Assembly: GCA_017676145.1 (NCBI GenBank)
Contig: GCA_017676145.1_3628.1
Length of the DNA: 64,000 bases
From: a phage
Strand: one strand, 5' to 3'
Each line of letters opens with the position of its first letter. Position 1 is the first letter of the stretch. This document shows positions 12,391-30,427 of the stretch, in pieces. The notes under the pieces were generated by a model. It ran no database searches and had not been told where the DNA came from. It was given only the letters and a program-made list of their open reading frames with translations. The position numbers and the translations under genes were made by a program.

Positions 12391-13431
12391 CTACGCATAA
12401 TTAACAGTGATCCATTGACCATTTACAAGTTTCTGTAAAGGCCCTGCCCAGTAGGTTGAACCACGCATCTCTTTTTTATCACCAAAATGCCAACCTGTGA
12501 CAACGTAGCCGTTGCGAACTGGAGATTCAGAAACACCATCAACAAGTCTTGCGCCGATTCTGATATCCTGTACACCTGTCTGCGGGATGGTGATCGTTAC
12601 ATCCCCGTTGCCGTTAGCCGTCACTCCATTCACAGAGCGCACCACATTTCTGTTACCGACAACACAATGCTGGCTTCTTACAACCATACTGTCACAACTT
12701 GCACCGCCATTGACATATACTGACCCAGCCGTCAACTGACTAGCTACATTGCAGTTGGTGAATGTTGCTGTGCTGCTAATGGTGAGGTTATTACATCGCA
12801 TGTTATCAACAACTTCAACATTGCCCACCACTTTCAACAACGCACGATTAGCCGTGATTGCGTTCAGATACATCAAAGTGAACTCTGGGTTAATGTCAGG
12901 CTGAGTTGGCTGAAATCTCCAACGGAACGCATCTACTGTAGAGGTGCCACCATCATCAAACGCCCCAATATTATCACTTAACCCAAAGTCGAGAGTTGTC
13001 TTATCTGGGCCAATAGTTGTCTCTATCCAAGCCTTATCTGTCTCGGCAGCTTTAAAGTTGATACGTTGCAAACCCAATGGGCCTGTCATTGTATCACCTG
13101 TAACTTTCACATACCTGGCGTCTGCCTCTTCCTTAGTAATAATACCAAGGTTTCTACGGGCAACAGGGATGTTCAAAAGATCACTCAAGTTATTATCACG
13201 TACCAGATAACGGCCTTCTTGAGCGGGGATCTGCTCGTCAGCAATGTATTTTGCCCAAGTCCCGAGCATATTGAAAATATAGTTAAGTTCTTCACAGGAT
13301 GGCTTTTGACCAAGATCCCAACCTTTTCTCCACAAATCATCAATCGGGCGTAGCCTGTTCTGTCTGTGGGTGTTAGGCAGAACCTGATCCTCCTCTGCCC
13401 AAATCTCTAATGGAAAACTAGGTTTTGACAT
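12391..13431 (-). CDS. tail fibre protein, paralogue B (346 aa)
   Basis: Paralogue of 10332..11378; contains VTGDTMTGPLGLQRINF fibre motif. Confidence 0.55.
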   Translation of the reverse strand: MSKPSFPLEIWAEEDQVLPNTHRQNRLRPIDDLWRKGWDLGQKPSCEELNYIFNMLGTWAKYIADEQIPAQEGRYLVRDNNLSDLLNIPVARRNLGIITKEEADARYVKVTGDTMTGPLGLQRINFKAAETDKAWIETTIGPDKTTLDFGLSDNIGAFDDGGTSTVDAFRWRFQPTQPDINPEFTLMYLNAITANRALLKVVGNVEVVDNMRCNNLTISSTATFTNCNVASQLTAGSVYVNGGASCDSMVVRSQHCVVGNRNVVRSVNGVTANGNGDVTITIPQTGVQDIRIGARLVDGVSESPVRNGYVVTGWHFGDKKEMRGSTYWAGPLQKLVNGQWITVNYA

Positions 13432-13443
13432 TTTATCTCCTGA

Positions 13444-15516
13444 TTATGAGAAGTCTGGCGGGACAACATCTTCTACATACCCTTTCAGAGCAACCTGCCC
13501 CATATGGAGCACGGTAGAATCCCTAGCGGTAACAGTGATGCTGTCAGACATTACTTGCGGGTATGCCCACACATACTGTTTTACCTCAGGGTATCTATAC
13601 TCTATGGTTGCCATGTTCCCGCAGATACATCTCCATAAAAATTCTTGGTAATTCCTGGTTGGGTCGTAGCCATATACCGGAGCAAGCTCTTTGCTAGGAA
13701 CGAACCCTGCAAGGTATTGTATTTCAGACGGTTGCCAACCTAACTTAACGATAGGTATGTTTACAGACTCTTTTGCCTTTTCAATACCACCCTGCATCAC
13801 CCAATCGTAGCACTCAGTGCAGAAGAAATCAAGAGCACCTGCTTCCTTTTTATATTGGTCAGCAAGGTTCAGCTTTTGCGTAAGCTCGGTTTCCATAATG
13901 GTCGGGAAAAACAGCAAAGCTGTCATCTGAGCCGATGCAGCGTGTGCTTTTATTGCCTTTGAAATAGCTGCAATACGAGCGCCAAGCTTACCACGACAAA
14001 ATGCTACATACTTGTCATAAACACCGCCAGTTTTAGGATCGTCAATAGTCCCAATGTCTAGTGCATATTCACCAGTCTCATCATAAAACGCCTGTTTTGT
14101 AGGGTAGTCATAAATACAAGGCTTACGAGTATCGGTATTGAACCACCACCACGGTTCACCAATCTGCATAATTACTGGCAGGTTGTTTCTCATAGCGGCT
14201 GATGCAAAATTCTTAAATACTGCAGTAAGGAAATTCATACCCTCTTCAATGGTTGGAGACAAGAGGTAACTACAAGGCGTATAGCCTGTTTTAGCATAGT
14301 TATCGTTCCAATCTCTCTGGGTCCATTCCAACGGACAGGCATCGCTATAAAGCTCAAAGCTTACAGACTGCATAACGTCGAAGTCATGTCGCTTGGCATT
14401 ATACATAAAGTCATCGTGCCATTTATAAGCTGCAGCGTTTAGAGCCCCTGTCCTGTTTATAGACCATTGGGTTCCGGACCATGTGTAATCATAATAATGG
14501 CTCATACCAACATAATGGTTTATGGTTCCGGTATAGCCCAGACGCTTGATATTGCTCACCACCCTTAAAGGAGATACGTTCCACATATCGTCATATGCTG
14601 TGCAGATCCCAACGTCGTGCTCTTTCACCTGGATATTGTTAAGTTGCATCATTTTCCAGCCTGTGTCTGGCTGAAGCAGATCTAGACGCAACTCACACTC
14701 TACATTTTCCGTTCTTGGGTCTGTACTATTACTTACCCAATCTTTAGGCATAAGTGGTATTAGAATCCTTCTCACCTGTCGAGGATCAACACCCATCATG
14801 TTGTTGTTCTGGTCCATCCCGACGCAGTCCTCGAAATCAATATGAATTTCTGCAACATTCTTATCCTCTGAGATGCTGACAGCATATTGAGCTAAAGGAA
14901 CATAGATGATTGTGCCATCAACAAGGTCTACAGTCATAATCATCTTTTCAGGGGTGGAGAAGTTGCTGGCATTGGTTATTGACATTCTGAACCAAAGCTT
15001 GGTGTTTCTCATCTCGTAGTGATCATCAAATCCAATGCCGAAATGGTCATACTTGTCAACTGTTTCCCAAATGCACCCAGCCATGCCTCCATATGTTCTT
15101 GACACTAAACGGTTAATACAGCAGTTATTATCTGCAACAATACAGGTGCTTTCAGTCTGCTGGGTAGTTGTAACCCAATATCTTGGGTGAAACATTCTCT
15201 CCTCAACAGTATCCCAAGATATTCTGTCAAGATTCTCATCTGAAACTATTGTGCATTTCGCTCTTTGTGTTCCAATCATAACCCCTTGAGAGTTTGATGA
15301 AAACTCCATAAAGAAGCTTCTTGGCAACCTGTTTGGCAATTTGTCAACAATTTCTACAGGGATCTCAATACTGGTTGCCCCAACCGGGATAGTTACATCG
15401 CCCTCAACATGATCATAATCTCTACCTGGAACTGCAGTATCCTGAACTGTGCGGTAATGAAACCGTGCAGCCATCGTAGAGTAATCACGGTAAGGTTTAA
15501 AAACAGCTGTTGCCAT
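13444..15516 (-). CDS. virion protein with Calx-beta-like N-terminal domain (690 aa), possible tailspike/enzyme
   Basis: N-terminus GRDYDHVEGDVTIPVGATSIEIPVEIVD resembles the Calx-beta motif; large Trp/Tyr-rich body. Confidence 0.45.
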   Translation of the reverse strand: MATAVFKPYRDYSTMAARFHYRTVQDTAVPGRDYDHVEGDVTIPVGATSIEIPVEIVDKLPNRLPRSFFMEFSSNSQGVMIGTQRAKCTIVSDENLDRISWDTVEERMFHPRYWVTTTQQTESTCIVADNNCCINRLVSRTYGGMAGCIWETVDKYDHFGIGFDDHYEMRNTKLWFRMSITNASNFSTPEKMIMTVDLVDGTIIYVPLAQYAVSISEDKNVAEIHIDFEDCVGMDQNNNMMGVDPRQVRRILIPLMPKDWVSNSTDPRTENVECELRLDLLQPDTGWKMMQLNNIQVKEHDVGICTAYDDMWNVSPLRVVSNIKRLGYTGTINHYVGMSHYYDYTWSGTQWSINRTGALNAAAYKWHDDFMYNAKRHDFDVMQSVSFELYSDACPLEWTQRDWNDNYAKTGYTPCSYLLSPTIEEGMNFLTAVFKNFASAAMRNNLPVIMQIGEPWWWFNTDTRKPCIYDYPTKQAFYDETGEYALDIGTIDDPKTGGVYDKYVAFCRGKLGARIAAISKAIKAHAASAQMTALLFFPTIMETELTQKLNLADQYKKEAGALDFFCTECYDWVMQGGIEKAKESVNIPIVKLGWQPSEIQYLAGFVPSKELAPVYGYDPTRNYQEFLWRCICGNMATIEYRYPEVKQYVWAYPQVMSDSITVTARDSTVLHMGQVALKGYVEDVVPPDFS

Positions 15517-17810: not shown

Positions 17811-20800
17811 TTAGTCGTGAGACTCGTTCCAAGGTCCCTGGAAGCTTGAGTTAGAACGACTAACGATCACAGTGGGACAGGAGATTGTGACACCTGTCAC
17901 GCTAGACGTTGACCACGGTGTGTAAATCTCGATAACAATGTCTATAGTTTGTTCACCCAGACCTGTTATCCCTACCGCACACATGCCGTTGTTGTCGTTA
18001 AAATACTTCTTGCCAGCAAGGATCTGATGACCAGCTATCCATGCATTCAGTTGGGAGCTGGCAAGAGTACCATTCAGTTTAAAGAAGAATGTTACGTTCT
18101 TACCCTGACCTGAAACGTTATCTACGTATCTCCACCTCCAACGGCAAACCCTTTGCTGGGAGTTATATACTGGAGCACAATCCCCGTAAGTCCTGTGTGC
18201 AACAATTGCACCTTCGAACTGGTTAGCGCGGATAACAGAAGCTTCTACACGACCACGGAAGGTACCTCCGGTTGCATCTATGGTGCCTCTAAAGCTACCA
18301 TTATTGGCATAAACATCCCCACGGAAGGTACCACTGGTGGCGTTAACTGCCCCTGTGAAGTTACCTGCACTAGCGTTGATGTTACCTTTCACCCACACAT
18401 CCATAAACTGGGCGTGCCCGTTCTTGTTAATATACCAACCGTATTTGTGGTACCCGTTGCCATCGTAGTTGTTAGACGAAATTTCTTGTGCAATCTTGGC
18501 AGAAGAGATCGTCCCGTTCTCTATAAAGGCATCTTTCAAGAACGCTTGGTTGTTCTTAATTGCGAAAGCAAGGGTTGCTGTTCCATTCCCAGGGTTGTAT
18601 ACCGCAAAGTTGTTTGCACTAACCATGAAGTATGATTGAACTTGGCCTCCAGAACCTTCCATGCCCAATTGGATACCTGCCACATACTTATTCCCTGCGG
18701 AGTCTACCTGTATTTTTGTGCCCCATTGAGCATTTACTTTGCCCTCTAAGTCGGTCACAGCCTTAGATGTTGTAGCCACTGCAGCTCTTAGCTCTGATAC
18801 ATCCCCAACATCATCAATGATCTCCTGCTTAGCAACAGCAAGTTCTTGACGAATAGCTGACGCTGTGCCGTTAATAAGATCCACAGTTGCTTTGTTGGTA
18901 TCGGAGATTGTAGCGTCCAGTGCTGTTTTTGTGGAGGTCAGCTTACCATCCAAATCCGCAATCGCCTGTTTGTTGGTAGAAATCTCCCCACGTGCAGAAG
19001 TTATCTGCTCAGACAGTGCGGAGGTTTTCTGATTCAACAAATCTGTGGTGGCCTTGTTGGTATTGGCAATCAAGGTATTGAGATCAGTTTTTGCGGTAGT
19101 TATCTTACCATCAAGGGTGGCATAGTTCTTAGATACCGTCGCGTTTGTCTGACTGATCTTTTGATCCAGAGTTTCAGAGGTCCTGTTAAGAAGATCCACT
19201 GTCGCCTTATTGGTGCTCAAGATGCTTGCGTCAAGTTCTGTTCTCTGGGTATTGATCTTGCCATCCAGAGTTTTATCTCCGGCAAGGTATCCGCTCTCCA
19301 CTCCACCTATTTGTTCTACCAACTCCCCTTTGGCTGCAACCAATTTCTCGTCTAAAGCCTCTGTCTTTTTGTTCAGAAGATCAGTGGTTGCTTTATTGGT
19401 TGTCTCAATCAGGGATGCCAGTCTTCCACTTTCAGTGTTCAGATCGTTGGTGAACTTGTTCTGTGCAGCAACAAGTTTCTTATCCAGCGCTGTGATATTG
19501 CCATTGACATCCTCAAACTTCTGAGTTGTCTCTGTAACTACAGCACCTATCCTATCCCCAAGTTGTTGGAATGCCTCATCTACCCTTCCGTCCATGTACT
19601 TGTTAAGTTCTGTGACACGATTTTCAACCTCTTCAATAGAGGAATCTAAAGTGCTCATCAACTCTTTATAAGTTTCTGTCTTTTTAAATTCAGCATCTAT
19701 CTGAGGCATCAAATCTTCAATGGAGGTATAGCAGCGTGCAGCACACTCTACAAACTGAGAACTACCAAAAGCATTTGTGGTTCGAATATACCAATAATAA
19801 ATCTTATCGTTCTGCAGACCTTCAGATGTCCAAGTTGAACCAACACCCATGCGGGTGGCTTTTGAAGTAACGGTTGCATCACTTGTGTCCGGCAACCTTG
19901 TCATACCAGATGTCCAAAAGTCATACTGGGTGCTTACACTTGCCAAGTCCCTACTGTGTGGAATCAGGGTGATAGCAAAGTACCCCTGCTTAACTTCTAC
20001 AGAAACCGGAGCTTCAGGTGCCTGAATGTTAAACTCGCAGTACGCTTCTGGAGATACACCGCCTTTATAAGATGTTGCAACCACGGTTGCTGTGTATGAC
20101 CCTTTGGTCAATCCTTCTACGCGGACAAACTGCTCGACTGTTTGTGCTGTCCAAATAATCTCTCCGTTCTTTCTTACCTGCACAATATTTTGAGCGTAAG
20201 TCCCAACGTTGTCCCAAGCTAAAACACCGTGAGTTACTTCTCCAGCTTGGAGAACGGAATATCTGAAGTTTTGCGGTTGAGCTACACCAGATGGGGATAT
20301 CGGAATATCTACATCGCCAGAATCCGGAAGTTGCCCTGTGGCATCATTCCACTCTTTAGCATCTTGACGAAGTTTTACCTTGACACCGCCCTTTTTGGTG
20401 AACTCCCATTCAAGAACCCTCATTTCTTGGCCCACTATACCAATACTTGGGAGGTCCATTGTAACATAACGGCCAGGCTTAAATTTAAAACCTCGCATAT
20501 TGCAGGTGACTTCAATAATCCTGCCAGCTCTAGCACGTCTTAAGAAGATTGCAGAAACACGTTGAGCTTGATAAGGACTGGTAACAAAGCGATAGTCTAT
20601 ATCGATTATCTTTCTTTCTCCATCCTTCTCTATCCACTCTGGTACAAACACTGATGGGAAATCTGTTTCAGAATACCCTTTGGTCGGACTAGTGAATCTG
20701 CCAGTTATCGTGTTAGATCTTTTGTCAAATGAGGCTTCCGGATAGATCTTAACCTCACCACAGACACAGTCCTCACTCAATGTCATTGTTGCCGGACCAT

Positions 20801-21650
20801 AGTATGCACCAACCAGCAAACCATACTTACCAGCAACATAACTAAGGTCTGCACCGCAAGCTTTCAGCATTTCTGCCATAATACTTGCTGGGGCCTCATC
20901 CATGTCAAACTCACCGTTAATGGTGTAACGTCGCTCACTGGTGCCGTCAGCGTTTTTTACCGCCTCGTCGCATATGTTGGCAGCCTCCTTGAAGGACTCC
21001 CAGTTGATGGTTTCGTCAGGACATTTAAGGTACGTTCTTAAATAGTCTAGGATCACCAAGGCCGCGTTATTGGTATACACCTCTTTACTGGTGCGAGGAT
21101 CATAACATTTTTTACCAACCTTGATGAGTGTAACGTTTGGCAACCCAAAAGGAAACTTGTTAGGGTCAAACCTGAAGCTAACACGTAGCCAGCTGATCCC
21201 TCTACCTATCATGTCCGGTGACCACGATGGGCAGTGTGTGCCCATGAAAGGATCAGAGGTTTTTCTGTCGTTATGTAGCTCCCACGATACCAAATCTCCA
21301 TACGAAGAAATAGGATTACCGTCGATAAGTATATCTTCTATACCTTCTAGCGGGTGATTGGCAAGAACAATGGCACAATGGAGGGTTCTGTCTCTATCCT
21401 GCTCCAAAAACGCAAGCAATCCAGATGTGCGTGTCTTCCCATACACTACAGAGCAAGGTGCAGCAGAAGATCTGAGAAGCTTTTGTCTATCTTGCTGACT
21501 TCTGTAAGATTTGTTACCCTCGAAAATCTTATCCAGAGTTCTGGTGGTAACAGTGTTCAGACTGTCAGCCAGAGCTGCCTTGGATGCGTTCCAGTCATAG
21601 CTTGAAGATCTTGCAGAAGCAACGATGTTATCAATCATTGCAATTGGCAT
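17811..21650 (-). CDS. lambda gpJ-like host-specificity/central tail fibre protein (1279 aa)
   Basis: C-terminal half shares collinear blocks with lambda J recalled from memory (KYVAGIQLGMEG...NNFAVYNP vs HYVAGIGLSMED...NRIAFIDP; FN3-like GYFAITLIPH.../YYWYIRTTNAFGSS); central coiled-coil-like repeats. Confidence 0.7.
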   Translation of the reverse strand: MPIAMIDNIVASARSSSYDWNASKAALADSLNTVTTRTLDKIFEGNKSYRSQQDRQKLLRSSAAPCSVVYGKTRTSGLLAFLEQDRDRTLHCAIVLANHPLEGIEDILIDGNPISSYGDLVSWELHNDRKTSDPFMGTHCPSWSPDMIGRGISWLRVSFRFDPNKFPFGLPNVTLIKVGKKCYDPRTSKEVYTNNAALVILDYLRTYLKCPDETINWESFKEAANICDEAVKNADGTSERRYTINGEFDMDEAPASIMAEMLKACGADLSYVAGKYGLLVGAYYGPATMTLSEDCVCGEVKIYPEASFDKRSNTITGRFTSPTKGYSETDFPSVFVPEWIEKDGERKIIDIDYRFVTSPYQAQRVSAIFLRRARAGRIIEVTCNMRGFKFKPGRYVTMDLPSIGIVGQEMRVLEWEFTKKGGVKVKLRQDAKEWNDATGQLPDSGDVDIPISPSGVAQPQNFRYSVLQAGEVTHGVLAWDNVGTYAQNIVQVRKNGEIIWTAQTVEQFVRVEGLTKGSYTATVVATSYKGGVSPEAYCEFNIQAPEAPVSVEVKQGYFAITLIPHSRDLASVSTQYDFWTSGMTRLPDTSDATVTSKATRMGVGSTWTSEGLQNDKIYYWYIRTTNAFGSSQFVECAARCYTSIEDLMPQIDAEFKKTETYKELMSTLDSSIEEVENRVTELNKYMDGRVDEAFQQLGDRIGAVVTETTQKFEDVNGNITALDKKLVAAQNKFTNDLNTESGRLASLIETTNKATTDLLNKKTEALDEKLVAAKGELVEQIGGVESGYLAGDKTLDGKINTQRTELDASILSTNKATVDLLNRTSETLDQKISQTNATVSKNYATLDGKITTAKTDLNTLIANTNKATTDLLNQKTSALSEQITSARGEISTNKQAIADLDGKLTSTKTALDATISDTNKATVDLINGTASAIRQELAVAKQEIIDDVGDVSELRAAVATTSKAVTDLEGKVNAQWGTKIQVDSAGNKYVAGIQLGMEGSGGQVQSYFMVSANNFAVYNPGNGTATLAFAIKNNQAFLKDAFIENGTISSAKIAQEISSNNYDGNGYHKYGWYINKNGHAQFMDVWVKGNINASAGNFTGAVNATSGTFRGDVYANNGSFRGTIDATGGTFRGRVEASVIRANQFEGAIVAHRTYGDCAPVYNSQQRVCRWRWRYVDNVSGQGKNVTFFFKLNGTLASSQLNAWIAGHQILAGKKYFNDNNGMCAVGITGLGEQTIDIVIEIYTPWSTSSVTGVTISCPTVIVSRSNSSFQGPWNESHD

Positions 21651-22087
21651 TAATACCTCCAGACATCAACAACGATAGAATCTTTCATATCGAACGTAAA
21701 GATCCCTTTATCACCTTTCGCCCAAATCTGGTTGTTCCAGAACACACCAGCGGTGAGGCCGTTCAGACCTTCGAAAATAACAATATCGCCACGCTGAACC
21801 TGTTTAGGAGTATCCAGTCTAGTCAAAAAGAGATCAAAAATAGTAGGCAGGTGTGTGGTTTTGAAACGGAGCATGCACCATCTCTTGCTTTCCAACTCTG
21901 TTTTATACGTTCCTTCAAAGTTAGAAAGAAAATCTGTTCCGTATTGGGCATCAACACACTTAGCCGCAAAAGTGCAACAATCGTGGAATCCCCATTCAAA
22001 CGGGACGGTGGCTTCTTCGTCAAATACTTTCCACAATTTTTCTTGCCAGTCTACTAAACGAGGGTGTGTGCTCATTAAACCTCCCAA
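21650..22087 (-). CDS. tail-associated protein with Cys/His motif (145 aa), possible gpK-like peptidase-fold protein
   Basis: Immediately upstream of J-like gene with 1-nt overlap; HDCCTF motif; assignment tentative. Confidence 0.3.
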   Translation of the reverse strand: MGGLMSTHPRLVDWQEKLWKVFDEEATVPFEWGFHDCCTFAAKCVDAQYGTDFLSNFEGTYKTELESKRWCMLRFKTTHLPTIFDLFLTRLDTPKQVQRGDIVIFEGLNGLTAGVFWNNQIWAKGDKGIFTFDMKDSIVVDVWRY

Positions 22088-22641
22088 ATGATCGGGCGGC
22101 TCGCCACCTGATCCACATATTTAAAAAATCTGTCATTATCGTTTCTTGAGCTATGGCTTTCCTCTGTGTATCGGTAAGGAAAACCTCTTAACCAGCTGTT
22201 GAAGATGGAAGAGATGGATATGGACAAAGCACTATTCTCCCCTGTCTGAATAGCCATGTCCGTTATAAGGCCGTCAAACAAGCCATTAGTTGTAACAGGC
22301 AAACCATTCTCCATAGCGGTGATATACAACGTGGCACGGCAACCGGAATACTCAGTCTTCAGAAGATCACCTACATACTTGGGATCAAACCCGTTCAATG
22401 TTGCTACCACAGATCCGAAGTTGGTGGCATCTTTCTCAGACACAGCAGTCAATGTTGCTGATCCACCTATCCCTATAAAATGTTGCCCCTCAATAACCAC
22501 AACACCAGTTCCTGAGCACACCCTGACAGTCCCTGTTGGCAGCTCTAGCTTTGCAGCAATTAAGATCTCAACACCATCAAGCTCTAGCTTTTCAAGAAAT
22601 AAATTATCTAATGGCGCTCTTATCATCTTAGAAATCCTCAA
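22075..22641 (-). CDS. tail protein (188 aa), unassigned
   Basis: Overlapping, co-oriented ORF in tail tip gene block. Confidence 0.35.
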   Translation of the reverse strand: MRISKMIRAPLDNLFLEKLELDGVEILIAAKLELPTGTVRVCSGTGVVVIEGQHFIGIGGSATLTAVSEKDATNFGSVVATLNGFDPKYVGDLLKTEYSGCRATLYITAMENGLPVTTNGLFDGLITDMAIQTGENSALSISISSIFNSWLRGFPYRYTEESHSSRNDNDRFFKYVDQVASRPIIWEV

Positions 22642-23218
22642 AGAAGTTGATAACTATATTGTCACCTTTCTGCATAGCATCAACCTTTTGCTTAATTTTA
22701 TAAAGATCTCGGATATGAAATCTACCCTTCGGAGATTGAGTTATTATTTTCATGGTATCCCCTGCGGCAATGGGTTTCCTAAGTCTTGGGGATATGTTTA
22801 TAACAGCGGCCCCAACACCATCACTTCGTACTGAGGCTGTCACCACTTTCAACTCATCATTGACAGATATTTTATCTCCAGCTCTGGCTATATCCCTGTT
22901 AGGCTCCCAACCAACCGTCTTCAAAAAATCGTCGTTACCAGTCGGTCCTAGAGCGATTGGCTCATTGGAGGTCACTGAATGCCCATAAGCCTTGATAAGA
23001 AAAATGTTTCCATCTTTGTAAACCTGATCAACAAAACTTTTAAGCTCTAACAACTGAGACTCGCTGATATTGGAAACCGTCAAAGTGCCTTTCCAATTAG
23101 GTGTGGCATAGGTTACTTTTTGCGTTTTACCTGTAAACGGGCTTTTAAACGTAACAATATCTGCCAACAACTCCAATCTAATGTCTGGAAGGTATCTAGG
23201 CCTTTCCCATAAAAACAT
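22628..23218 (-). CDS. tail protein (196 aa), unassigned
   Basis: Overlapping, co-oriented ORF in tail tip gene block. Confidence 0.35.
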   Translation of the reverse strand: MFLWERPRYLPDIRLELLADIVTFKSPFTGKTQKVTYATPNWKGTLTVSNISESQLLELKSFVDQVYKDGNIFLIKAYGHSVTSNEPIALGPTGNDDFLKTVGWEPNRDIARAGDKISVNDELKVVTASVRSDGVGAAVINISPRLRKPIAAGDTMKIITQSPKGRFHIRDLYKIKQKVDAMQKGDNIVINFFEDF

Positions 23219-23281: not shown

Positions 23282-23310
23282 AAACAAAAAGCCCCCGCCG
23301 AAGCGAGGGC
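23282..23310 (-). terminator. rho-independent terminator
   Basis: On minus strand GCCCTCGC-ttcg-GCGGGGGC hairpin followed by TTTTTGTTT, directly after stop of 23318..27124 gene. Confidence 0.65.
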
Positions 23311-23317
23311 AAAACAG

Positions 23318-26300
23318 TTACTTCAATTTTCCTTGTAACTCGGTGACAACCTCTGTCAATTTTTTAACCTGTTCCTCAAGGGAGGTTATTCTATCATCTT
23401 GTTCTCTGCAAACCTGAACAAGCAATCCTGTTACAGCAGCATAGTCAACATTATAGAATCTTTCCTCGGTCATCAGAGGAATACCATCTTGAGTAGGACC
23501 AGGAACCTCTTTCCTTTTCACGAAAGAACCAACCGCTTCAGGTAATGCTTCCATAACCTCTTGAGCAATTACCCCCGCGTGAGGCATACCATTCTCTTTT
23601 AGAGTGTAGGTATAGCCTTTCATCTTACGGATAGCTTCCAGCGCGTTAGGAATAACCTCTATGTTATCCTTCAGGTCACGGTCAGAGCTCTGGCTGACAG
23701 CAGTGCACTCTACTACGCCGTTAACAGCAAGGTACCTTGACTTGGCCTCATCTGTCTTAGCACCACAATGCCATACCCAACTGGCAGATGTAGCGTTGTC
23801 GTTTATCTGGAACTCAAGCACGTTCTTCCTGTCTGCGCCATTACCCCAGTAGTACATTCTGCCTGTATTAGAAGGCATGTTGGAAGTGTTGGTAACATCA
23901 GTCCCACCACCTGTATGTATCATGAACTCCGGGTCAAGATTGGAGCCTGCGGTTTTAAGAGTAATTCCCTTACCACCAAGCTGCTGCCAAGGTCCCCATG
24001 TGAAAACACTACCTATTGTTGTTCCATAACGCAGGAATTTTTCCCCAAGATATGATATATACTCCTGTACGCAACTCTCTGGAACATTGGCGTAGTTCCT
24101 GTACACTATAAGCGTACCTGCTCGGGAGCATGGGTAGTTTCTATCAGGTGTGGCTTGAGCATTGGCCTCCTGATGATAAAAACCTTCCCTATCCCCTTTA
24201 TAGTCGTTAAGGTCATTAACCCCCAGACCTTGCCCTCTGTGTTGTATGACCTTGTTCCACGCTCTATGGTTACCACCCTCGATAGACCTGGTGTATAACT
24301 GATCAAGGCGACCAGCCATTTGGAAAGCATAGTTCCCAGAAAAAGCCACAGACAGTCCACCAACAACCATCGAACCTTCTGGTCCGTTGACGTTGCCAGC
24401 CATTATTTTGGACGGGTTATTAGGCCCAAACTGGTTGTTCCAGTCTGCACCAGTGTGGCATACAAAACCACCAGGAGCTGAGAAAGTGCCATCTTTGTTG
24501 AAGTTGTAGAATCTGTGAGCAGAACCTACAACATCACGAACAATAACTTGACCAGCCTCTGGAGTAGATCTGAACTCTGCCTGTCCTTGCAGTCTTGCGC
24601 CATTACCGCATTTAGAGGTAAAGGTATTGTTGATCAGATCCTCTGTTCCTTCCGATGCAGCTTGGAACCCTGCGTTAGAGAACAGTGCTTTTCTAGTGGT
24701 TTGGCTACCCGGGCAAATGTAGTTAAGACCGTTGTACCACATCTCTACAGGGGGCATTTCTGTCTTACTCATCAGAACCATTCGGTCAGGTGTGCCTATA
24801 TAGTGCCGATCTGTACTACCGCCTGTATAGAACCCAGGTGTTCCCTTGAACTCCGCAAGAGTCCTAGTGTTTGTTACATCATCACCTTTAATTGCAAGGC
24901 TTAAATTATCCGACGCAAGAGGGGCGCAAAACTTGACACCATCTTGGTTATTAGTAACATTTCCTACCTGCCAGTCATTTTCTCTGGTAAATACCTCAAG
25001 AACGTTTCTGCTTGTGTAGACACTGACAGGGAAAGCACGCGACTCAACATAGAATGCAACATACTCCTGCTTTCCTCTGGTTGGGGATACACATCCAAGA
25101 ATTGCTTTCTCGTTTTGGTAGAAATTAATAACCCCTTGGAAAGAATCCCCTCTGTCTGTCCACCCACCGGTTCTATAGTGACACTGTAAGGTCGCACAGT
25201 TCATAGGGTCACTGCCAGATGACGATCTGGTAACTATAGTAATATCAGTACCAGTTGTGGGCGCATAGTATGGATCTGTTCTAACGATGATTGGGTAGTA
25301 TTTCCCATCTTCCATTCCTGCAGTTCTTGGCAGTGTTAAGAAATCTTTTACGCCTGCCGCTACAGGAACTTTGAACAGATTCTGAGCATCTGCTAAAGTT
25401 GTAGCTCCAGTGCCACCTGCGGCCTGAGGTAAAGGTTCCCACTTGGCCTTCCGGTTGTTATAAACACCCCATTCCAGAGTACCATTACCGGACTCATCCA
25501 TCCCTCCATCCCAGACGACCATCTTGGCGGCTTTCTTGGAACCCCAGAATCCTCTTTCTGCCCCTGAACTACGAATCCATTCTCCAAGTCCCCAGTTTGT
25601 CAGCTGACCAGTGAGATCCCCGACCTGCATGTACTTAGGACAATCTAATACACCATCTTCACGGAATCCTAAATACCGATGAGTTTCAGATCCTTTTGCG
25701 CCTTTGTGCAGGTGGACTGTTAACCAAGTCTTATTGTCGTTTCTTACCTCGGAGTAGATCCTATACCCATGCTCAAGGACACCGTCAGCACTGTATTTGT
25801 CCCCGTTAACAATACCTGATGCCGACTTAACATCAGCAGAGCTTTGAGACAGGTAAAGGTGCCCGAAGGTAGGGGAATTTCTAGACCCAAGACCGATGTG
25901 CGATCTAAAAGTATCATCGTTACGAGGTCTGACCATTGGCTGCCATGCAGTCCACTGGTTTGTGTTGGCCTGATAGGTTCTTAAATACCAAACATCTACG
26001 TTAGAGAATGGATAGTATTCCTGACGACAGCCAGTGCCACCGTTAGCATTGTTCTGCCAAACAATCAAGTGACCAGCACCAGAACCTGCAGGATAACCAT
26101 TTGCCTCAGTTGCATTAGCTGTCATCGGCTGGTAGTATATGCCGTCCTGATTACCAGTCAAGTTATTGATATTGAAATTTGCCTCAAGGGCTGCACGTTG
26201 CTTATAGAAAGCACCGATATTGATACGGACTCCAGCGGCATCTCTGGCTCCTGTACCGCCTTGCTCTATAGCAAGAGGTTGCCACGAGGCTGTTTGCTGG

Positions 26301-27124
26301 TTCCACATACCCCAACGGCCTGTTGCATCAAGCTGCAAGTACCCTGCCGTGTTTAAATCATCTCCAGCACGGATAACTGTTCTTGTTGGGTTGTTTGCCT
26401 CCAGGCGTTTAAATTCATCACGAAGTGCTATTCTTTTTGTTGTTGCTACACCGTTGGTTACTGCAATGGTATACATGGCTCCAGAGGTAGCGCCACGGAA
26501 AATACCATCAACAGTCGTAGTATCACGACGAGATACCACACCGTTCAAAAATTTTTCACCAGCTGCTTCAGAGGGGTAGTTAGTAGTTCTTCCCTCTTCA
26601 ATAACTGCAGGACCAACAAAGTTGACAAGGTGAATAACATCGCCTACAGTATGCACTGTACCAAAATCTACCCGCTGTGCAAGTGCTTTAGCATCGTTGG
26701 CTGTCTGAACCGTAACATCCATTACATCCTGGACAGACTGCCCTTCGGCTGTCATGATCATAGATGCGCCAATGGTAGACTCCAACTCCTCCCTTAAGGA
26801 CGGGTCTGTATATACCATCCATGCAGCATCAGTAATCCCACCATCAGAGTACGGTGAAGACAGTGCAGGCACAGTGTGTGGAAATTCGCCTTTCCAACGC
26901 AGGTAGAGGTCTTCCTCTTCGAAGTAGGCAAAATCCATTGGGCCGTTTAACTTACCACCTTCCTTAAAGGAGATTACATGAGAAACAGTCCCATCCACAT
27001 GGACAACATCGCCAATTTTTACACGACGGGTCAGGTCTGGTTGTTGAACAACCAGGTAATCATCCTCTGTCACTGCGGTAGTGGCAGGAAGAGATTCAAT
27101 TCTGACAACTTTAATATCAGCCAT
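23318..27124 (-). CDS. tail fibre/tailspike protein (1268 aa)
   Basis: Large ORF; N-terminal domain homologous to N-terminus of 29759..30427 product (DD[YF]LVV.Q.D.TR..KI.DVV...EGG.L...DFAY); coiled-coil terminus. Confidence 0.5.
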   Translation of the reverse strand: MADIKVVRIESLPATTAVTEDDYLVVQQPDLTRRVKIGDVVHVDGTVSHVISFKEGGKLNGPMDFAYFEEEDLYLRWKGEFPHTVPALSSPYSDGGITDAAWMVYTDPSLREELESTIGASMIMTAEGQSVQDVMDVTVQTANDAKALAQRVDFGTVHTVGDVIHLVNFVGPAVIEEGRTTNYPSEAAGEKFLNGVVSRRDTTTVDGIFRGATSGAMYTIAVTNGVATTKRIALRDEFKRLEANNPTRTVIRAGDDLNTAGYLQLDATGRWGMWNQQTASWQPLAIEQGGTGARDAAGVRINIGAFYKQRAALEANFNINNLTGNQDGIYYQPMTANATEANGYPAGSGAGHLIVWQNNANGGTGCRQEYYPFSNVDVWYLRTYQANTNQWTAWQPMVRPRNDDTFRSHIGLGSRNSPTFGHLYLSQSSADVKSASGIVNGDKYSADGVLEHGYRIYSEVRNDNKTWLTVHLHKGAKGSETHRYLGFREDGVLDCPKYMQVGDLTGQLTNWGLGEWIRSSGAERGFWGSKKAAKMVVWDGGMDESGNGTLEWGVYNNRKAKWEPLPQAAGGTGATTLADAQNLFKVPVAAGVKDFLTLPRTAGMEDGKYYPIIVRTDPYYAPTTGTDITIVTRSSSGSDPMNCATLQCHYRTGGWTDRGDSFQGVINFYQNEKAILGCVSPTRGKQEYVAFYVESRAFPVSVYTSRNVLEVFTRENDWQVGNVTNNQDGVKFCAPLASDNLSLAIKGDDVTNTRTLAEFKGTPGFYTGGSTDRHYIGTPDRMVLMSKTEMPPVEMWYNGLNYICPGSQTTRKALFSNAGFQAASEGTEDLINNTFTSKCGNGARLQGQAEFRSTPEAGQVIVRDVVGSAHRFYNFNKDGTFSAPGGFVCHTGADWNNQFGPNNPSKIMAGNVNGPEGSMVVGGLSVAFSGNYAFQMAGRLDQLYTRSIEGGNHRAWNKVIQHRGQGLGVNDLNDYKGDREGFYHQEANAQATPDRNYPCSRAGTLIVYRNYANVPESCVQEYISYLGEKFLRYGTTIGSVFTWGPWQQLGGKGITLKTAGSNLDPEFMIHTGGGTDVTNTSNMPSNTGRMYYWGNGADRKNVLEFQINDNATSASWVWHCGAKTDEAKSRYLAVNGVVECTAVSQSSDRDLKDNIEVIPNALEAIRKMKGYTYTLKENGMPHAGVIAQEVMEALPEAVGSFVKRKEVPGPTQDGIPLMTEERFYNVDYAAVTGLLVQVCREQDDRITSLEEQVKKLTEVVTELQGKLK

Positions 27125-27159
27125 TCTTTCTCCTGAAAGGGGGCAAACAGCCCCCTATG

Positions 27160-29757
27160 TTAAAGGTACAATCCACGGTATTGAGCATAAAGTCCCAGAC
27201 CGCGAAGGATTTCGCCAGAGTGATAGCCTACCGGATCAGAAACTGCCCAGCAGCCGTTTAAAACATTATCCCCGTTAATGAAGTGGTGCTTTTGCAGTAA
27301 CTTCACACAGGCTTCTACAACAATATCTATTTGAGGTATTGTCTCTGAATACCCGCAAAGACCTAGCCAGCAGCAACCTGCAAGCCATTCACCTACCACC
27401 CACATCCTGTCACCTCTGTCTTGATAAGAATATCCTCCTGAGGTGTTAAAGTCTGTAGGGAGATTTCCGGAATGAGATGACTGGAATCTGTTGAGGAACC
27501 ATGCCCATTTCTGGCAGAACAGGAACAGTCTTTCGTCAACAGGTTCTTTATGTTTCTTAAGCTCATATAGTGTGCGGCACGCAGCAACAAAGGCTCTTGA
27601 TTGGAGTTTAGAGTTATCTACCATCTCCCACCAACCAGTCAACCCTTCATTACCCCTCTGCCATACGTAGCGGGATGCAACTGGTCCTTCTGTTTTAAAT
27701 GTGTTATTATACCAAACTTGGGAGTCGTACATAAATCCAATTGTATTTGCCAATCTTTGACGATCTATGTTTTCCGCACCCATACAGTAGACTACCGGAT
27801 ATTGCATTCCGGGATAGGGCCAATTTGGCCTTTCCTCTAGAAGATAATTTTCCTTATCTATCACCTTTCCGGCAGGGAACACACCTGGAGTGTGTCTGTA
27901 TGCGCCTTGCTTGTAGTTTCTGACATAGCAATCACCAACCTTGGCGGTTGATTCTGTCTTGCTTGCCATCCATACACTAAACCAGATCAGATAAGCATCC
28001 CTATCTGCAACATAAAATTGCGGCAGCGTGTTGACGCAATACAGATCGAACAAGCCATTACCTATCTGCCTGTCGCTCAGACTGAAATCTACAGAGGTAA
28101 TTCCTTTAGGGTTGGCAAAGAAAGGTTTAATCTCATCTTCTGTGTGATGAGGTTGTGTTGGATCTAGTTTAAAATCACCTAGGGTAAGAGTTTCTGTTAT
28201 CCATTGTCCGTTAGTGGCATATAGATCAGCATACCATAACCAACGGTCTTTGTCAAGAAATTTGACCCTTACCATCTCATCATCTGATCGATAAGTTACT
28301 GAATTTAAAGAAATCTCTCTTCCAAAATTGAAAGTTACTTTGCCTCTTACTATGTTGCAACGGGTGAAGTTGTCGGAGTGGTTGTAAATGTCGGTATCAT
28401 ACTGCATACTAACACTAGCGCCACCGCTTACGGCAATGTTTTCCTCTTTTGGCAAGAGATACGGGTTACCGTCTTTACCAACCACCTCTACGAAATCAGT
28501 AACTTTGGCAACTGTCTCTGTTACTTCTGACCCTCCAAAAGGGACCCCTATCCTATACTGTTTTTTGTTATTGTTGCCATCATTAAGGATGAAATGTGGC
28601 TGGAACAGAACCCCCTCTCCTCCGAAATTCATAACAATTTCAGCATCTCTGCCTATCTTGTATGTAGTCCCTTTTTGGATTATTTCGCAAGGCTGGCGTG
28701 CGTTCATTCTAAAATTGATATACCCGTCGCTGTCCCTACTCATGACAGGAACTGTTCCTGCAACGAGACAAGTACCATCTGTGAACGGTGCCTTAATCAA
28801 CGTGGTCTTTCTAAACAACTTGTCGTAGGCATTTATATCACTGAAATTAAGCAACTTGTTGTAAGACTGTTTAAACGCGGTGTAATACTTTTCCTCGCCT
28901 GTCAAAGTGTAGAGTTGATAACAAGCGTCACACCACATTTCTTCCCCGTCCAACTCTGGGGCTTGATTGTCTGCAACCACATTTATAGGGTTTACAATTA
29001 CAGGGGATCCAGCAGGTATCACCGATCCACCCTGCTCTTGTGGCAATCTCACACAGTAGGTTACCTTGTGGCTGCCTGTAACACCCTTATCCTGCAGTTG
29101 GATTGTGCCGAACTCTGCAGACGTATGACCACTGTCGGCTATGCTACCGTTGGCCCAATAGCGGTTACCATCCCATGCTATATACCACTCAACCCACCAA
29201 CTTAATCCAGATGTTGTCCAATTTGGGTTAGCATCCGTGCCGCCGTAAACATCAGAGTCTACAGTGTTTCTTCCTAGCACACCGTTATACGCTTGAAATG
29301 CCTTGTCTAGGTATTCACCCCATGTCGGAGATCCAGCTGGGATTTTTCCTCTACCATTGGTAAAAGACACCACTACATCTTTAAACCCACCATGTGATGG
29401 GACCCCGTCTGTAGATAATGGGTAGTGGGACAATCTTTGCATTTTACTTTCTACTGCATATGCACCCAGAAGATGACTGTTGTAGGCTTCCCAGGCTTCT
29501 TTGGCCCTATCTAGATAAAAATCGCTTTTCGATGCCCTGTATGCTTCAATGTATCCCAGAATCAACACAGCCTGAGCTTCATGCATTGCCCAATCATTAT
29601 TTATCTTACTCCCTGACCAACCTGACGCTATAAGTCCATCCTGGTTTACCAGCTTGTTCTGCGTGGAGAGATTGGTAATGCCTGTGTTATTATCGAGGCA
29701 CTTCCTGTGCCCCTCAATCATCTGAAATACGTTATCAATGTTGTGTTGAATACGCAT
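27160..29757 (-). CDS. tailspike-like virion protein (865 aa)
   Basis: Large Trp/Tyr/Asn-rich ORF in fibre block; possible glycosidase-type tailspike, unverified. Confidence 0.4.
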   Translation of the reverse strand: MRIQHNIDNVFQMIEGHRKCLDNNTGITNLSTQNKLVNQDGLIASGWSGSKINNDWAMHEAQAVLILGYIEAYRASKSDFYLDRAKEAWEAYNSHLLGAYAVESKMQRLSHYPLSTDGVPSHGGFKDVVVSFTNGRGKIPAGSPTWGEYLDKAFQAYNGVLGRNTVDSDVYGGTDANPNWTTSGLSWWVEWYIAWDGNRYWANGSIADSGHTSAEFGTIQLQDKGVTGSHKVTYCVRLPQEQGGSVIPAGSPVIVNPINVVADNQAPELDGEEMWCDACYQLYTLTGEEKYYTAFKQSYNKLLNFSDINAYDKLFRKTTLIKAPFTDGTCLVAGTVPVMSRDSDGYINFRMNARQPCEIIQKGTTYKIGRDAEIVMNFGGEGVLFQPHFILNDGNNNKKQYRIGVPFGGSEVTETVAKVTDFVEVVGKDGNPYLLPKEENIAVSGGASVSMQYDTDIYNHSDNFTRCNIVRGKVTFNFGREISLNSVTYRSDDEMVRVKFLDKDRWLWYADLYATNGQWITETLTLGDFKLDPTQPHHTEDEIKPFFANPKGITSVDFSLSDRQIGNGLFDLYCVNTLPQFYVADRDAYLIWFSVWMASKTESTAKVGDCYVRNYKQGAYRHTPGVFPAGKVIDKENYLLEERPNWPYPGMQYPVVYCMGAENIDRQRLANTIGFMYDSQVWYNNTFKTEGPVASRYVWQRGNEGLTGWWEMVDNSKLQSRAFVAACRTLYELKKHKEPVDERLFLFCQKWAWFLNRFQSSHSGNLPTDFNTSGGYSYQDRGDRMWVVGEWLAGCCWLGLCGYSETIPQIDIVVEACVKLLQKHHFINGDNVLNGCWAVSDPVGYHSGEILRGLGLYAQYRGLYL

Positions 29758-29758
29758 C

Positions 29759-30427
29759 TTAGATAGCTCCTGCTATAATCAGTGCCCCGTACCAAGTTAA
29801 CCCGTTGTCGTAGGTTTCTAACTTGAAAATATCTGTTGCACCAGCTGTAAATGTTAGGATAGGATCTCTTCCGTATGCCCATTTAACATTATCAGGCCAA
29901 TAGACTTTGTTACCGCCAGAGGTCTGAGTAATGCATACGGTTATAGTTCTCGCTACCCCTTCAAGACCTTCTGTCTGATTTTCAAAAGAGATTGTGGTAT
30001 TTGAAGTTAGTCGAACTTTAAAAGTGTCCGCAACTTCAAGATCCATATCAAGCTGACCACCAATAGATCCGTAATCAACTATTCTGCCAGAAGAAGTTGC
30101 AGCAAGCTCCCCAAAAACAGACCAGGCTTTTGCAGACACACCCCCAGCACCCTCTACAGTAGAGTCTGGGAGGATTATTTTAGGATAATCCCCGTTCCAC
30201 GTGTAGTAGCGCTTAGTTTCTGGATCATAAGCAAAGTCCTTCTTGCTCTTAAGATAACCACCCTCTGTGAAATAGACTATCTTAGTAATGCTAAGATCGT
30301 TGACAACATCGTCAATCTTAGCCTTTCTTGTCCCATCAGTCTGGTTGACAACCAAGAAGTCATCACTCAGGACTGTTTCTGCATCTTCAAGATCTGGAAT
30401 TGGTATTGTAGGATAAGCTACAGCCAT
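29759..30427 (-). CDS. fibre-anchor domain protein (222 aa)
   Basis: N-terminus shares the conserved attachment-like domain with the 1268-aa fibre. Confidence 0.4.
   Translation of the reverse strand: MAVAYPTIPIPDLEDAETVLSDDFLVVNQTDGTRKAKIDDVVNDLSITKIVYFTEGGYLKSKKDFAYDPETKRYYTWNGDYPKIILPDSTVEGAGGVSAKAWSVFGELAATSSGRIVDYGSIGGQLDMDLEVADTFKVRLTSNTTISFENQTEGLEGVARTITVCITQTSGGNKVYWPDNVKWAYGRDPILTFTAGATDIFKLETYDNGLTWYGALIIAGAI

What the first reader, a model, noticed from the sequence alone, without database searches (positions are those of the whole stretch)
23318..30427. Shared N-terminal attachment domain between a 222-aa protein and the 1268-aa fibre
The first ~100 residues of both proteins align (DD[YF]LVV.Q.D.TR..KI.DVV...EGG.L...DFAY...). 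This looks like a common docking module used to mount different distal domains on the same baseplate site, a hallmark of multi-tailspike phages.
Basis: seen in the sequence. Interest (0 to 1): 0.35.

Follow-up and report, generated by a model that had tools for sequence, protein, structure and literature searches.

The report
Shared N-terminal anchor of two fibre proteins
Two tail proteins of an rV5/FV3-like E. coli phage really do start with the same ~105-residue module, most likely the handle that fixes them to the virion while their outer ends differ; this is a real but ordinary and largely known feature of phages with several tail fibres.

Summary
The 222-aa protein (29759-30427, minus strand; rV5 gp43) and the 1268-aa fibre (23318-27124, minus strand; rV5 gp41) align over residues 8-105 and 7-105 at 38% identity. 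BLASTP gives E = 2e-18, and the Smith-Waterman score lies 31 SD above 2000 shuffles. No other ORF in the window carries the module.

The window is a Vequintavirus, 96% identical in DNA to phage FV3. The shared region has two parts:
- **Part A (residues 1-48):** a strictly N-terminal motif with no Pfam model.
- **Part B (residues ~49-108):** Pfam PF18668, the D2 "head" domain of the CBA120 TSP1/3/4 and G7C gp63.1 tailspikes.

The gene order small protein, ~900-aa gp42-like protein, fibre with the same N-module recurs in Seunavirus and in phi92. In phi92 only part A is shared, between gp140 and endosialidase gp143. In metagenomes the same N-terminus carries many different distal domains.

The best reading is a paralogous virion-attachment module. 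The claim of "the same baseplate site" is untested and less likely than two separate sites. The acceptor is unknown; gp42 or the wedge are candidates. The PVP-SE1 GenBank record already notes the N-terminal similarity. Interest is low to moderate.

The parts
29759..30427 (-). Gene for the 222-aa protein (orthologue of rV5 gp43, FV3 ORF043, PVP-SE1 gp51, phi92 gp140). It is a short virion protein made of N-module plus a ~105-aa C-terminal beta-sandwich.
   Evidence: ORF. phrog_7760 matched at E = 6e-119. FV3 and WalterGehring annotations. Found in the rV5 virion proteome (PMC3606486).
30284..30427 (-). Part A of the 222-aa protein (residues 1-48): the strictly N-terminal motif ..I.DL..A..V..DD.LVV.Q.D.TRK.KI.DVV. 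Proposed docking element.
   Evidence: Alignments. No Pfam model covers it. The AF2 monomer has pLDDT below 50 here. This is the only part shared by phi92 gp140 and gp143.
30104..30283 (-). Part B of the 222-aa protein (residues ~49-108): Pfam PF18668 Tail_spike_N, the D2-type 'head' domain.
   Evidence: Pfam 40.5 bits against a cutoff of 25. Sequence hits in the PDB. AF2 pLDDT 72-80. Foldseek top hits are 4qnl, 9d84, 6nw9, 4oj5 and 5w6h.
29762..30085 (-). C-terminal domain of the 222-aa protein (residues ~115-222): a beta-sandwich 'knob' also found at the C-terminal ends of other phage tail-fibre families.
   Evidence: phrog_9017, 32568, 22179 and 27998 matched at E = 3e-25 to 3e-14, at the profiles' C-terminal ends. 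The AF2 model is all-beta with pLDDT 45-70. No significant PDB fold match.
27160..29757 (-). Gene for the 865-aa protein (rV5 gp42, PVP-SE1 gp50, phi92 gp141). It is always encoded between the two module-bearing genes and starts 1 nt after the stop of the 222-aa gene. It is a candidate acceptor or adaptor; this is not shown.
   Evidence: ORF. phrog_2871 'tail protein'. Synteny. Gene junction. No Pfam, NCBIfam or PDB sequence hit. AF2 pLDDT 51, and the fold search was uninformative.
23318..27124 (-). Gene for the 1268-aa fibre (rV5 gp41): N-module, conserved proximal shaft, mosaic distal part and C-terminal S74 chaperone.
   Evidence: ORF. phrog_6578. Pfam hits. Mosaic comparison with P0005-P0010.
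26981..27124 (-). Part A of the fibre (residues 1-48).
26801..26980 (-). Part B of the fibre (residues ~49-108): PF18668.
   Evidence: Pfam 41.2 bits. PDB hits 9occ, 9d84, 9lna, 4qnl, 5w6h, 6nw9 and 4oj5.
26696..26809 (-). 'Neck' motif of the fibre (residues ~106-143, TDPSLREELESTIGASMIMTAEGQSVQDVMD). It is shared with tailspikes and absent from the 222-aa protein, so it marks the end of the common region.
   Evidence: PDB alignments extend to residues 138-161 for the fibre only. The BLASTP alignment between the two proteins ends at residue 105.
23321..23722 (-). C-terminal intramolecular chaperone of the fibre (Peptidase_S74; Pfam core at residues 1147-1198, i.e. 23531-23686), containing the S-D-R-D-L-K serine/lysine motif.
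   Evidence: Pfam PF13884 60.8 bits. Sequence. PDB hits 6f45 and 7dc3.
23291..23310 (-). Terminator-like GC hairpin plus T-run immediately after the fibre gene. It ends the transcription unit that contains the three genes.

Best explanation
The two proteins carry paralogous copies of an N-terminal virion-attachment module.

**What the module is.** It has two pieces. Part A is about 48 residues, always at the very N-terminus, and is predicted as a beta-hairpin plus a short helix. Part B is a ~60-residue PF18668 'head' domain of the kind found in the CBA120 and G7C tailspikes.

**How it probably works (inferred).** Both proteins are likely trimers. Part A, helped or spaced by part B, plugs each trimer into a conserved acceptor at the baseplate periphery. 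The parts behind the module differ. The 1268-aa protein carries a long fibre with a mosaic distal region whose C-terminal S74 chaperone is cleaved off after folding. The 222-aa protein carries only a small beta-sandwich knob.

**Number of sites and the acceptor (inferred).** Both genes are kept side by side in every related genome and have diverged to 38% identity. They therefore most likely occupy two distinct sites rather than compete for one. The most likely acceptor is the conserved ~900-aa gp42-like protein encoded between them. The alternative is the C-terminal domain of the wedge protein.

**Consequence.** The conserved handle lets recombination swap distal receptor-binding parts without disturbing assembly.

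**Status of each step.** Shown here: the homology, the composite nature of the module, the conserved gene order, and the same handle on many different distal domains. Inferred: the docking function, trimer formation, two separate sites, and the identity of the acceptor.
For: **Homology is far above chance.**
- E = 2e-18 and z = 31.

**Part B is a known tailspike head domain.**
- PF18668 scores above its gathering cutoff in both proteins.
- It matches the D2 domains of CBA120 TSP1/3/4 at ~1e-17.
- It matches G7C gp63.1 and Shigella B2 gp48 by sequence and by fold.
- In CBA120 the D1-D2 head, TSP1 residues 14-166, is sufficient to bind the TSP4 N-terminal region. Removing the head of TSP3 abolishes complex formation (PMC8825819).

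**Part A behaves as the constant element.**
- In phi92 only part A is shared, between gp140 and endosialidase gp143.
- phi92-like tailspikes of 624-794 aa begin with the same ~50 residues as gp143.
- The gp143 slot is empty, replaced or truncated in close relatives (PMC10269720).

**The same handle carries different distal parts.**
- Among the 150 best representative clusters, 18 have A+B contiguous at the N-terminus, on proteins of 82-1599 aa. A further 19 have A at the N-terminus with B further in.
- Pfam finds S74, beta-helix, pectate-lyase-like, alginate lyase, SASA esterase and tail-collar domains among them.
- gp41 relatives share the first ~330-390 residues and then diverge.

**Gene order is conserved.**
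- The trio small protein, gp42-like protein, fibre occurs in Vequintavirus, Seunavirus and phi92. There is a 1-nt gap or overlap between the small gene and the gp42-like gene.
- A remote myophage contig again has a short (244 aa) and a long (502 aa) protein that share an N-terminal region (E = 6e-15) next to a gp42-like protein.

**Both proteins are in or on the virion.**
- gp41, gp42 and gp43 are all in the rV5 virion proteome (PMC3606486).
- The TC12 fibre class, which I take by its domains to be the gp41 type, was fitted into density at the baseplate wedge of two Vequintavirinae (PMC12143355).

**Structure prediction is consistent.**
- The AF2 monomer gives pLDDT 72-80 for part B but below 50 for part A. 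That fits a segment that folds only in a trimer or on a partner (this reading is an inference).
Against: - No binding data exist for these proteins, and no multimer prediction could be run.
- CBA120-type acceptor domains (T4 gp10-like XD2/XD3) are not detectable in any window protein by Pfam or by direct phmmer with TSP4-N340 and TSP2-N170.
- The gp42 model is too poor (pLDDT 51) to reveal a docking platform.
- A distant gp42 homologue in a Burkholderia prophage-like region has no part-A protein nearby. gp42-like proteins therefore do not strictly require such partners.
- Part B is internal, and often repeated, in 103 of the 150 best representatives. On its own it is not a docking signature.
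- The Pfam entry calls PF18668 a 'receptor binding' domain.
- The only solved structure resembling part A is a marginal hit to crAss001 gp22 residues 28-58 (E = 0.09). That stretch lies just after the residues (1-26) that sit in the crAss001 docking hub (PMC10172136).
Confidence: 0.72

Rival explanations
1. One site, two competitors. Both modules bind the same acceptor site. Each of the six baseplate positions carries either the long fibre or the short knob, giving mixed or regulated occupancy.
For: - The modules are homologous along their whole length.
- Support for grouping by protein type in the tree is weak, at 29-46% bootstrap.
- The PVP-SE1 paralogues gp51 and gp49 are as similar to each other (49%) as gp51 is to its rV5 orthologue (46%).
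Against: - Both genes are retained together in every genome examined, in four lineages.
- The small gene is tightly coupled to the next gene, which suggests fixed stoichiometry.
- The two modules are only 38% identical in protein and 52% in DNA, with no sign of gene conversion. Within the genus the gp43 module is at least 98% conserved.
- In CBA120 the homologous heads of TSP1 and TSP3 bind different sites (PMC8825819).
Confidence: 0.12
2. The shared region is a carbohydrate- or receptor-binding domain, as the Pfam name suggests, and not an attachment domain. Both proteins would then recognise a common host glycan through it.
For: - The Pfam description of PF18668 is 'receptor binding N-terminal domain'.
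- Part B occurs internally and in several copies in many tailspikes, like a lectin-type accessory domain.
Against: - The region is at the extreme N-terminus. In fibres and spikes that is the virion-proximal end (general statement in PMC12143355).
- It stays constant while the distal parts are exchanged.
- The CBA120 head containing this domain has a measured protein-protein docking role (PMC8825819).
- Part A, the most constant piece, has no similarity to any carbohydrate-binding family.
Confidence: 0.08
3. The 222-aa gene is a vestige: a truncated duplicate of a fibre or spike gene that kept only the handle. It would be comparable to the short ORFs that replace one tailspike in some SP6/K1E-like phages (from memory). 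It has no function of its own beyond filling or capping a site.
For: - It is short and has the same N-module as the neighbouring fibre.
- Single metagenomic ORFs exist in which part A is fused to unrelated sequence (P0004 and P0028).
Against: - It is conserved from Vequintavirus to Seunavirus, and to phi92 (gp140, which keeps part A and the knob but lacks part B), together with its own C-terminal domain.
- That C-terminal domain forms families with the C-terminal tips of other fibres.
- The protein is present in rV5 virions (PMC3606486).
- Within the genus its N-terminal 110 residues are at least 98% identical.
Confidence: 0.08

Closest known systems
Orthologous trios in related myophages: rV5 gp43/gp42/gp41, FV3 ORF043/042/041, PVP-SE1 gp51/gp50/gp49, phi92 gp140/gp141/(gp142)/gp143
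   Same: - Same genes in the same order.
- The locus is 96% identical in DNA to FV3.
- The PVP-SE1 record already describes gp49 as a 'putative fusion protein similar to rV5 gp043 at N-terminus'.
- The rV5 paper reported HHpred similarity of the gp43 N-terminus to the P22 tailspike N-terminus (PMC3606486).
   Different: Nothing essential for the Vequintavirus members. In Seunavirus the third protein is a 712-aa spike-like protein rather than a 1268-aa fibre. In phi92 only part A is shared, and the partner is an endosialidase.
Branched tailspike complexes of CBA120 (TSP1-4, Ackermannviridae) and G7C (gp63.1/gp66, N4-like)
   Same: - Part B is the same domain family as D2 of the TSP 'head'.
- The principle is the same: several receptor-binding proteins carry homologous N-terminal heads, and those heads dock onto another virion protein (PMC8825819).
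   Different: - D1 of the head is absent. A shorter, unrelated part A takes its place.
- No T4-gp10-like XD acceptor domains are detectable in the window.
- The large partner is a fibre with an S74 chaperone, not a beta-helix depolymerase.
SP6/K1E/K1-5 adaptor system
   Same: Two proteins with a common short N-terminal docking element on one adaptor, where one of the two can be very short. The phi92 study compares its L-shaped fibre I with the K1E/K1-5 arm-plus-endosialidase arrangement (PMC13450770).
   Different: No sequence similarity was tested or found. That system is in podoviruses. That gp42 plays the adaptor role is only a hypothesis here.
crAss001 tail fibre gp22 N-terminus in its docking hub (PDB 7qoj)
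   Same: It is the only solved structure with any resemblance to part A: residues 28-58, VVLVQNGKNVKASVKDVV. The gp22 N-terminus is the part held by the fibre docking hub (PMC10172136).
   Different: The hit is marginal (E = 0.09). The residues buried in the hub are 1-26, not the matching stretch.

Membership tests
Pfam PF18668 Tail_spike_N (TSP1/Gp66 N-terminal domain) | Profile score above the curated gathering cutoff (25 bits) | tested here: met
   40.5 bits for residues 51-104 of the 222-aa protein. 41.2 bits for residues 46-103 of the 1268-aa protein. All 34 module-bearing relatives scanned also match.
Pfam PF18668 Tail_spike_N (TSP1/Gp66 N-terminal domain) | Fold like the D2 head domain of solved tailspikes | tested here: met
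   AF2 gives pLDDT 72-80 for residues 50-105. Foldseek top hits are 4qnl, 9d84, 6nw9/5w6f, 4oj5 and 5w6h, with probability 0.84-1.0 and E = 2e-3 to 3e-2. The overall model is weak, so this supports the sequence result rather than standing as independent proof.
CBA120/G7C-type branched tailspike complex | Complete D1-D2 head at the N-terminus of the docking partner | tested here: not met
   Only D2 (part B) is present. The 48 residues before it (part A) do not match the CBA120 TSPs (E > 0.2), and PDB alignments begin at residue 37 or later.
CBA120/G7C-type branched tailspike complex | Acceptor protein with T4-gp10-like XD2/XD3 domains encoded in the tail module | tested here: not met
   No Gp10-type Pfam hit in 19 tail-module proteins. 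phmmer with TSP4 residues 1-340 and TSP2 residues 1-170 against all window ORFs gave a best E of 0.33-0.58. A fold-level test of gp42 was inconclusive.
CBA120/G7C-type branched tailspike complex | Physical complex between the N-terminal head and the acceptor | not testable with these tools
   Needs co-expression and pull-down, analytical ultracentrifugation, cryo-EM or multimer prediction.
Tail fibres with a C-terminal intramolecular chaperone (Peptidase_S74) | S74 profile match, plus the serine/lysine pair spaced as in endosialidase (Ser-x4-Lys; the spacing is from my own knowledge of endoNF) | tested here: met
   PF13884 scores 60.8 bits at residues 1147-1198. The motif S-D-R-D-L-K is readable in the sequence. 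Cleavage itself was not tested.
Vequintavirus gp43 / gp41 orthologue groups (phrog_7760 / phrog_6578) | Full-length profile match and conserved position after the sheath-initiator gene | tested here: met
   phrog_7760 at E = 6e-119 over residues 1-221. phrog_6578 at E = 0. Synteny with FV3 and WalterGehring.

The most novel reading that the evidence does not exclude
gp43, gp42 and gp41 form one branched appendage. The conserved ~900-aa gp42-like protein (a putative glycosidase) would be the arm that sits on the wedge. It would offer two different sockets for part A, a widespread N-terminal docking motif of about 45 residues that no Pfam model describes. One socket would always hold the small knob protein. 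The other would hold an exchangeable fibre or spike.

This would assign genes to the unresolved 'fibre I' arm of phi92: gp141 as the arm, with gp143 and gp140 docked on it. It would also give a simple rule for retargeting this group of phages.
Probability: 0.3. Interest if true: 0.5.

Novelty: already known. Interest (0 to 1): 0.25.

Why it matters
Vequintavirinae and phi92-like phages are valued for their broad host range. Yet the literature still says it is unclear which genes build which fibre (PMC8594841), and the 2026 phi92 structure left fibres I and II unassigned (PMC13450770).

Knowing that residues 1-48 are the constant handle tells an engineer where a foreign receptor-binding part can be grafted. 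The natural swap points lie after about residue 50 in phi92-like phages and after about residue 330-390 in rV5-like phages. The result also points to gp42/gp141 as a component worth looking for in the maps.

As a discovery it is minor. The phage, the Pfam domain and the principle are all known.

Tried and rejected
1. **Recent duplication or gene conversion: rejected.** Codon-aligned DNA identity is 52%, and the local DNA score is no better than the best codon shuffle.

2. **A third carrier of the module in the window: none found.** This covers the 1878-, 581-, 690-, 865-, 348- and 346-aa proteins.

3. **Word-indexed homologue searches: limited yield.** They returned only close orthologues (4 and 5 hits). 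The exhaustive profile search was needed to reach further.

4. **AF2 of the 222-aa protein: partly usable.** Mean pLDDT was 57. Only part B is usable. The C-terminal knob gave non-significant matches to Pfs48/45-like sandwiches.

5. **AF2 of the 865-aa protein: uninformative.** pLDDT was 51. Foldseek TM-scores were 0.12 or lower, with only generic lectin-like jelly-roll and GH116 hits. There is no evidence for or against a docking platform.

6. **Part-A profile against the PDB: one marginal hit only**, to crAss001 gp22.

7. **Concerted evolution of the two modules: not seen.** An NJ tree groups them by protein type, but with only 29-46% bootstrap support, so it is not decisive.

8. **Context of distant gp42 homologues: mixed.** One remote phage repeats the pattern of short and long proteins with a shared N-terminus. 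One Burkholderia prophage-like locus does not.

9. **First AF2 submission refused.** It contained sequences from GenBank loci.

10. **The 2012 phi92 paper (PMC3457257) is not in the library**.

Full report
**What is there**

The region 23318-30427 holds three minus-strand genes:
- a 222-aa ORF at 29759-30427;
- an 865-aa ORF at 27160-29757, whose start codon lies 1 nt after the stop of the previous gene;
- a 1268-aa ORF at 23318-27124, followed by a strong terminator-like hairpin at 23291-23310.

The whole stretch is 96% identical in DNA to Escherichia phage FV3 and 90-95% identical to more than 110 other Vequintavirus genomes. The three genes are the orthologues of rV5 gp43, gp42 and gp41. 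They follow the baseplate hub, the central spike and the sheath-initiator-like gene.

**Check of the observation**

BLASTP aligns residues 8-105 of the small protein with residues 7-105 of the fibre. The alignment has 38% identity, 55% positives and one gap, at E = 2e-18. The Smith-Waterman score of 176 compares with 27.4 +/- 4.8 (maximum 57) over 2000 shuffles, so z = 31.

No other ORF of the window carries the module. At the DNA level the two copies are only 52% identical, with no long shared stretch. They are old paralogues.

**Anatomy of the shared region**

It is not a single domain.

Residues ~46-105 of both proteins match Pfam PF18668 (Tail_spike_N) above its cutoff. By sequence they match solved tailspikes: CBA120 TSP1, TSP3 and TSP4, G7C gp63.1, Shigella phage B2 gp48, and others. 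A profile of this part hits the D2 domains of CBA120 TSP1/3/4 at about 1e-17. The AF2 model of the 222-aa protein is weak overall (pLDDT 57) but reaches 72-80 in this part, and its best PDB fold matches are the same tailspikes. I call this part B.

Residues 1-48 (part A; consensus ..I.DLP.AT.V...DYLVV.Q.D.TKK......L) have no Pfam model. They are absent from the CBA120 TSPs. They have only a marginal match in the PDB, to crAss001 gp22 residues 28-58 at E = 0.09. As a monomer they are predicted with pLDDT below 50.

After residue 105 the two proteins part ways. The fibre continues with a 'neck' motif shared with tailspikes. The small protein continues into a ~105-residue beta-sandwich that other fibre families carry at their C-terminal tips.

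**Comparative evidence**

tblastn with the module finds two places per genome in all Vequintavirus records. It also finds two places in Seunavirus (PVP-SE1, EC152, LNA4) and in Cronobacter phage records.

In PVP-SE1 and EC152 the order is the same: a 224-aa protein, a ~929-aa gp42-like protein, then a 712-aa protein with the same N-terminus. The PVP-SE1 GenBank record already calls that last protein a 'putative fusion protein similar to rV5 gp043 at N-terminus'.

In phi92 the small protein gp140 (157 aa) and the endosialidase gp143 share part A only, while gp151 carries part B only. Parts A and B are therefore separable.

An exhaustive profile search of 1.84 billion representatives found 576 clusters at E <= 1e-3. 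The 150 best divide as follows:

| Arrangement | Clusters | Notes |
|---|---|---|
| A+B contiguous at the N-terminus | 18 | proteins of 82-1599 aa |
| A at the N-terminus, B further in | 19 | B lies about 30-220 residues after the end of A, mostly ~50 |
| A only | 4 | |
| B only, near the N-terminus | 6 | |
| B only, internal | 103 | often more than one copy |

Several members of the 'A then B' group begin with the same ~50 residues as phi92 gp143 but continue into different spikes. In close relatives of phi92 the gp143 slot is empty, replaced or truncated (PMC10269720). Relatives of the 1268-aa fibre share its first ~330-390 residues and then become mosaic. Pfam finds S74, beta-helix, pectate-lyase-like, alginate lyase, SASA esterase, alpha/beta hydrolase and tail-collar domains behind the module.

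This is the classic signature of a constant proximal handle with exchangeable distal parts.

**How it most likely works**

In CBA120 the D1-D2 head, which contains the domain homologous to part B, is the piece through which TSP1 and TSP3 dock. TSP1 residues 14-166 bind the TSP4 N-terminal region, and a headless TSP3 no longer assembles (PMC8825819). rV5 gp41, gp42 and gp43 are all detected in virions (PMC3606486). The fibre class that by its domains corresponds to gp41 (TC12) was fitted into density at the baseplate wedge of two Vequintavirinae (PMC12143355).

I therefore read the module as a virion-attachment module. Part A is the element most likely to make the contact, because it is the only strictly N-terminal and universally shared piece. 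Part B is an accessory head domain.

Which protein receives the module is not shown. The CBA120-type acceptor (gp10-like XD domains) is not detectable in the window.

The gp42-like protein is the best candidate on circumstantial grounds:
- it always sits between the two module-bearing genes;
- it is translationally coupled to the small gene;
- a remote myophage again has a gp42-like protein preceded by a short and a long protein that share an N-terminal region.

Against this, its structure model was too poor to interpret. A Burkholderia prophage-like homologue also stands alone, with no part-A protein nearby.

[quoted passage not shown] It could not assign the arm, and it never considers gp141 (PMC13450770).

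**Same site or different sites**

Both genes are kept together in every genome examined. They are only 38% identical, yet the gp43 N-terminal 110 residues are at least 98% identical across the genus. A neighbour-joining tree groups the modules by protein type rather than by genome, although with weak support. Two dedicated sites are more likely than competition for one, but this remains an inference.

**Comparison with what is known, and novelty**

The phage group, the Pfam domain, the principle of a conserved N-terminal anchor with variable distal domains, and the N-terminal similarity between the gp43-type and the downstream protein are all already on record (PMC3606486; PMC8825819; PMC12143355).

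I did not find three things stated in the papers read here:
- the split of the module into parts A and B;
- the observation that phi92 gp140 and gp143 share part A;
- the proposal that the gp43-gp42-gp41 trio is one appendage.

These are modest refinements and remain hypotheses.

**Verdict**

The feature is already known in kind, and interest is low to moderate.

Noticed in passing
window 17811-23218 (minus strand): A siphovirus-type tail-tip block sits between the fibre gene and the wedge genes of this contractile-tailed phage. It comprises a 196-aa distal-tail-protein-like ORF, a 188-aa tail protein, a 145-aa DUF6950 protein and a 1279-aa lambda-J-like protein (PF09327, PF24489). The block is absent at that position in PVP-SE1, EC152 and phi92.
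   Followed up: partly
GenBank records MG065652, MG065658, MG065653, MG065666 and others: Eighteen records named 'Campylobacter phage', with host given as C. jejuni, match this E. coli Vequintavirus locus. Those listed are 98-100% identical over the first 110 residues of gp43. They are probably mislabelled or contaminant genomes.
   Followed up: no
window 27125-27159 (minus strand): A perfect GC hairpin, GGGGGC-TGTT-GCCCCC followed by TTT, lies in the 35-nt spacer between the gp42 stop and the gp41 start, just before the gp41 ribosome-binding site. It did not pass the terminator scan because it lacks a long T-run. It could be an attenuator or an RNA-stability element.
   Followed up: partly
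proteins P0004 (149 aa, 1-kb contig) and P0028 (159 aa): In these metagenomic ORFs the N-module is fused to unrelated sequence. In P0004 the break falls at residue 43/44, the border between parts A and B. In P0028 it falls at about residue 64, inside part B. They are either chimeric assemblies or real recombination junctions.
   Followed up: no
locus L007 6588-13474: A remote myophage contig has three consecutive tail proteins with part-A-like N-termini in front of a gp42-like 1157-aa protein: 357 aa with a Gp10_C domain, 502 aa, and 244 aa. The 244- and 502-aa proteins share about 150 N-terminal residues (E = 6e-15). Only the 357-aa protein reaches E = 0.005 against the part-A profile.
   Followed up: partly
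window 10332-11378 and 12391-13431 (minus strand): Two paralogous short tail-fibre genes (348 and 346 aa, 43% identical over their full length) are separated by a lambda-gpK-type fibre assembly gene (11792-12376). This is known for rV5 as gp30 and gp33 (PMC3606486).
   Followed up: no
window 13444-15516 (minus strand): A 690-aa protein combines a Calx-beta domain with the N-terminal and TIM-barrel domains of the N4-type non-contractile tail sheath protein (PF23844, PF23845; E = 2e-79). This is the conserved fibre proposed in the BASEL paper to target ECA (PMC8594841).
   Followed up: no
window ~56000: The sign of the GC skew and the coding strand both switch near 56 kb. Genes are on the minus strand before that point and on the plus strand after it, marking the border between the structural module and a divergently transcribed module.
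   Followed up: no
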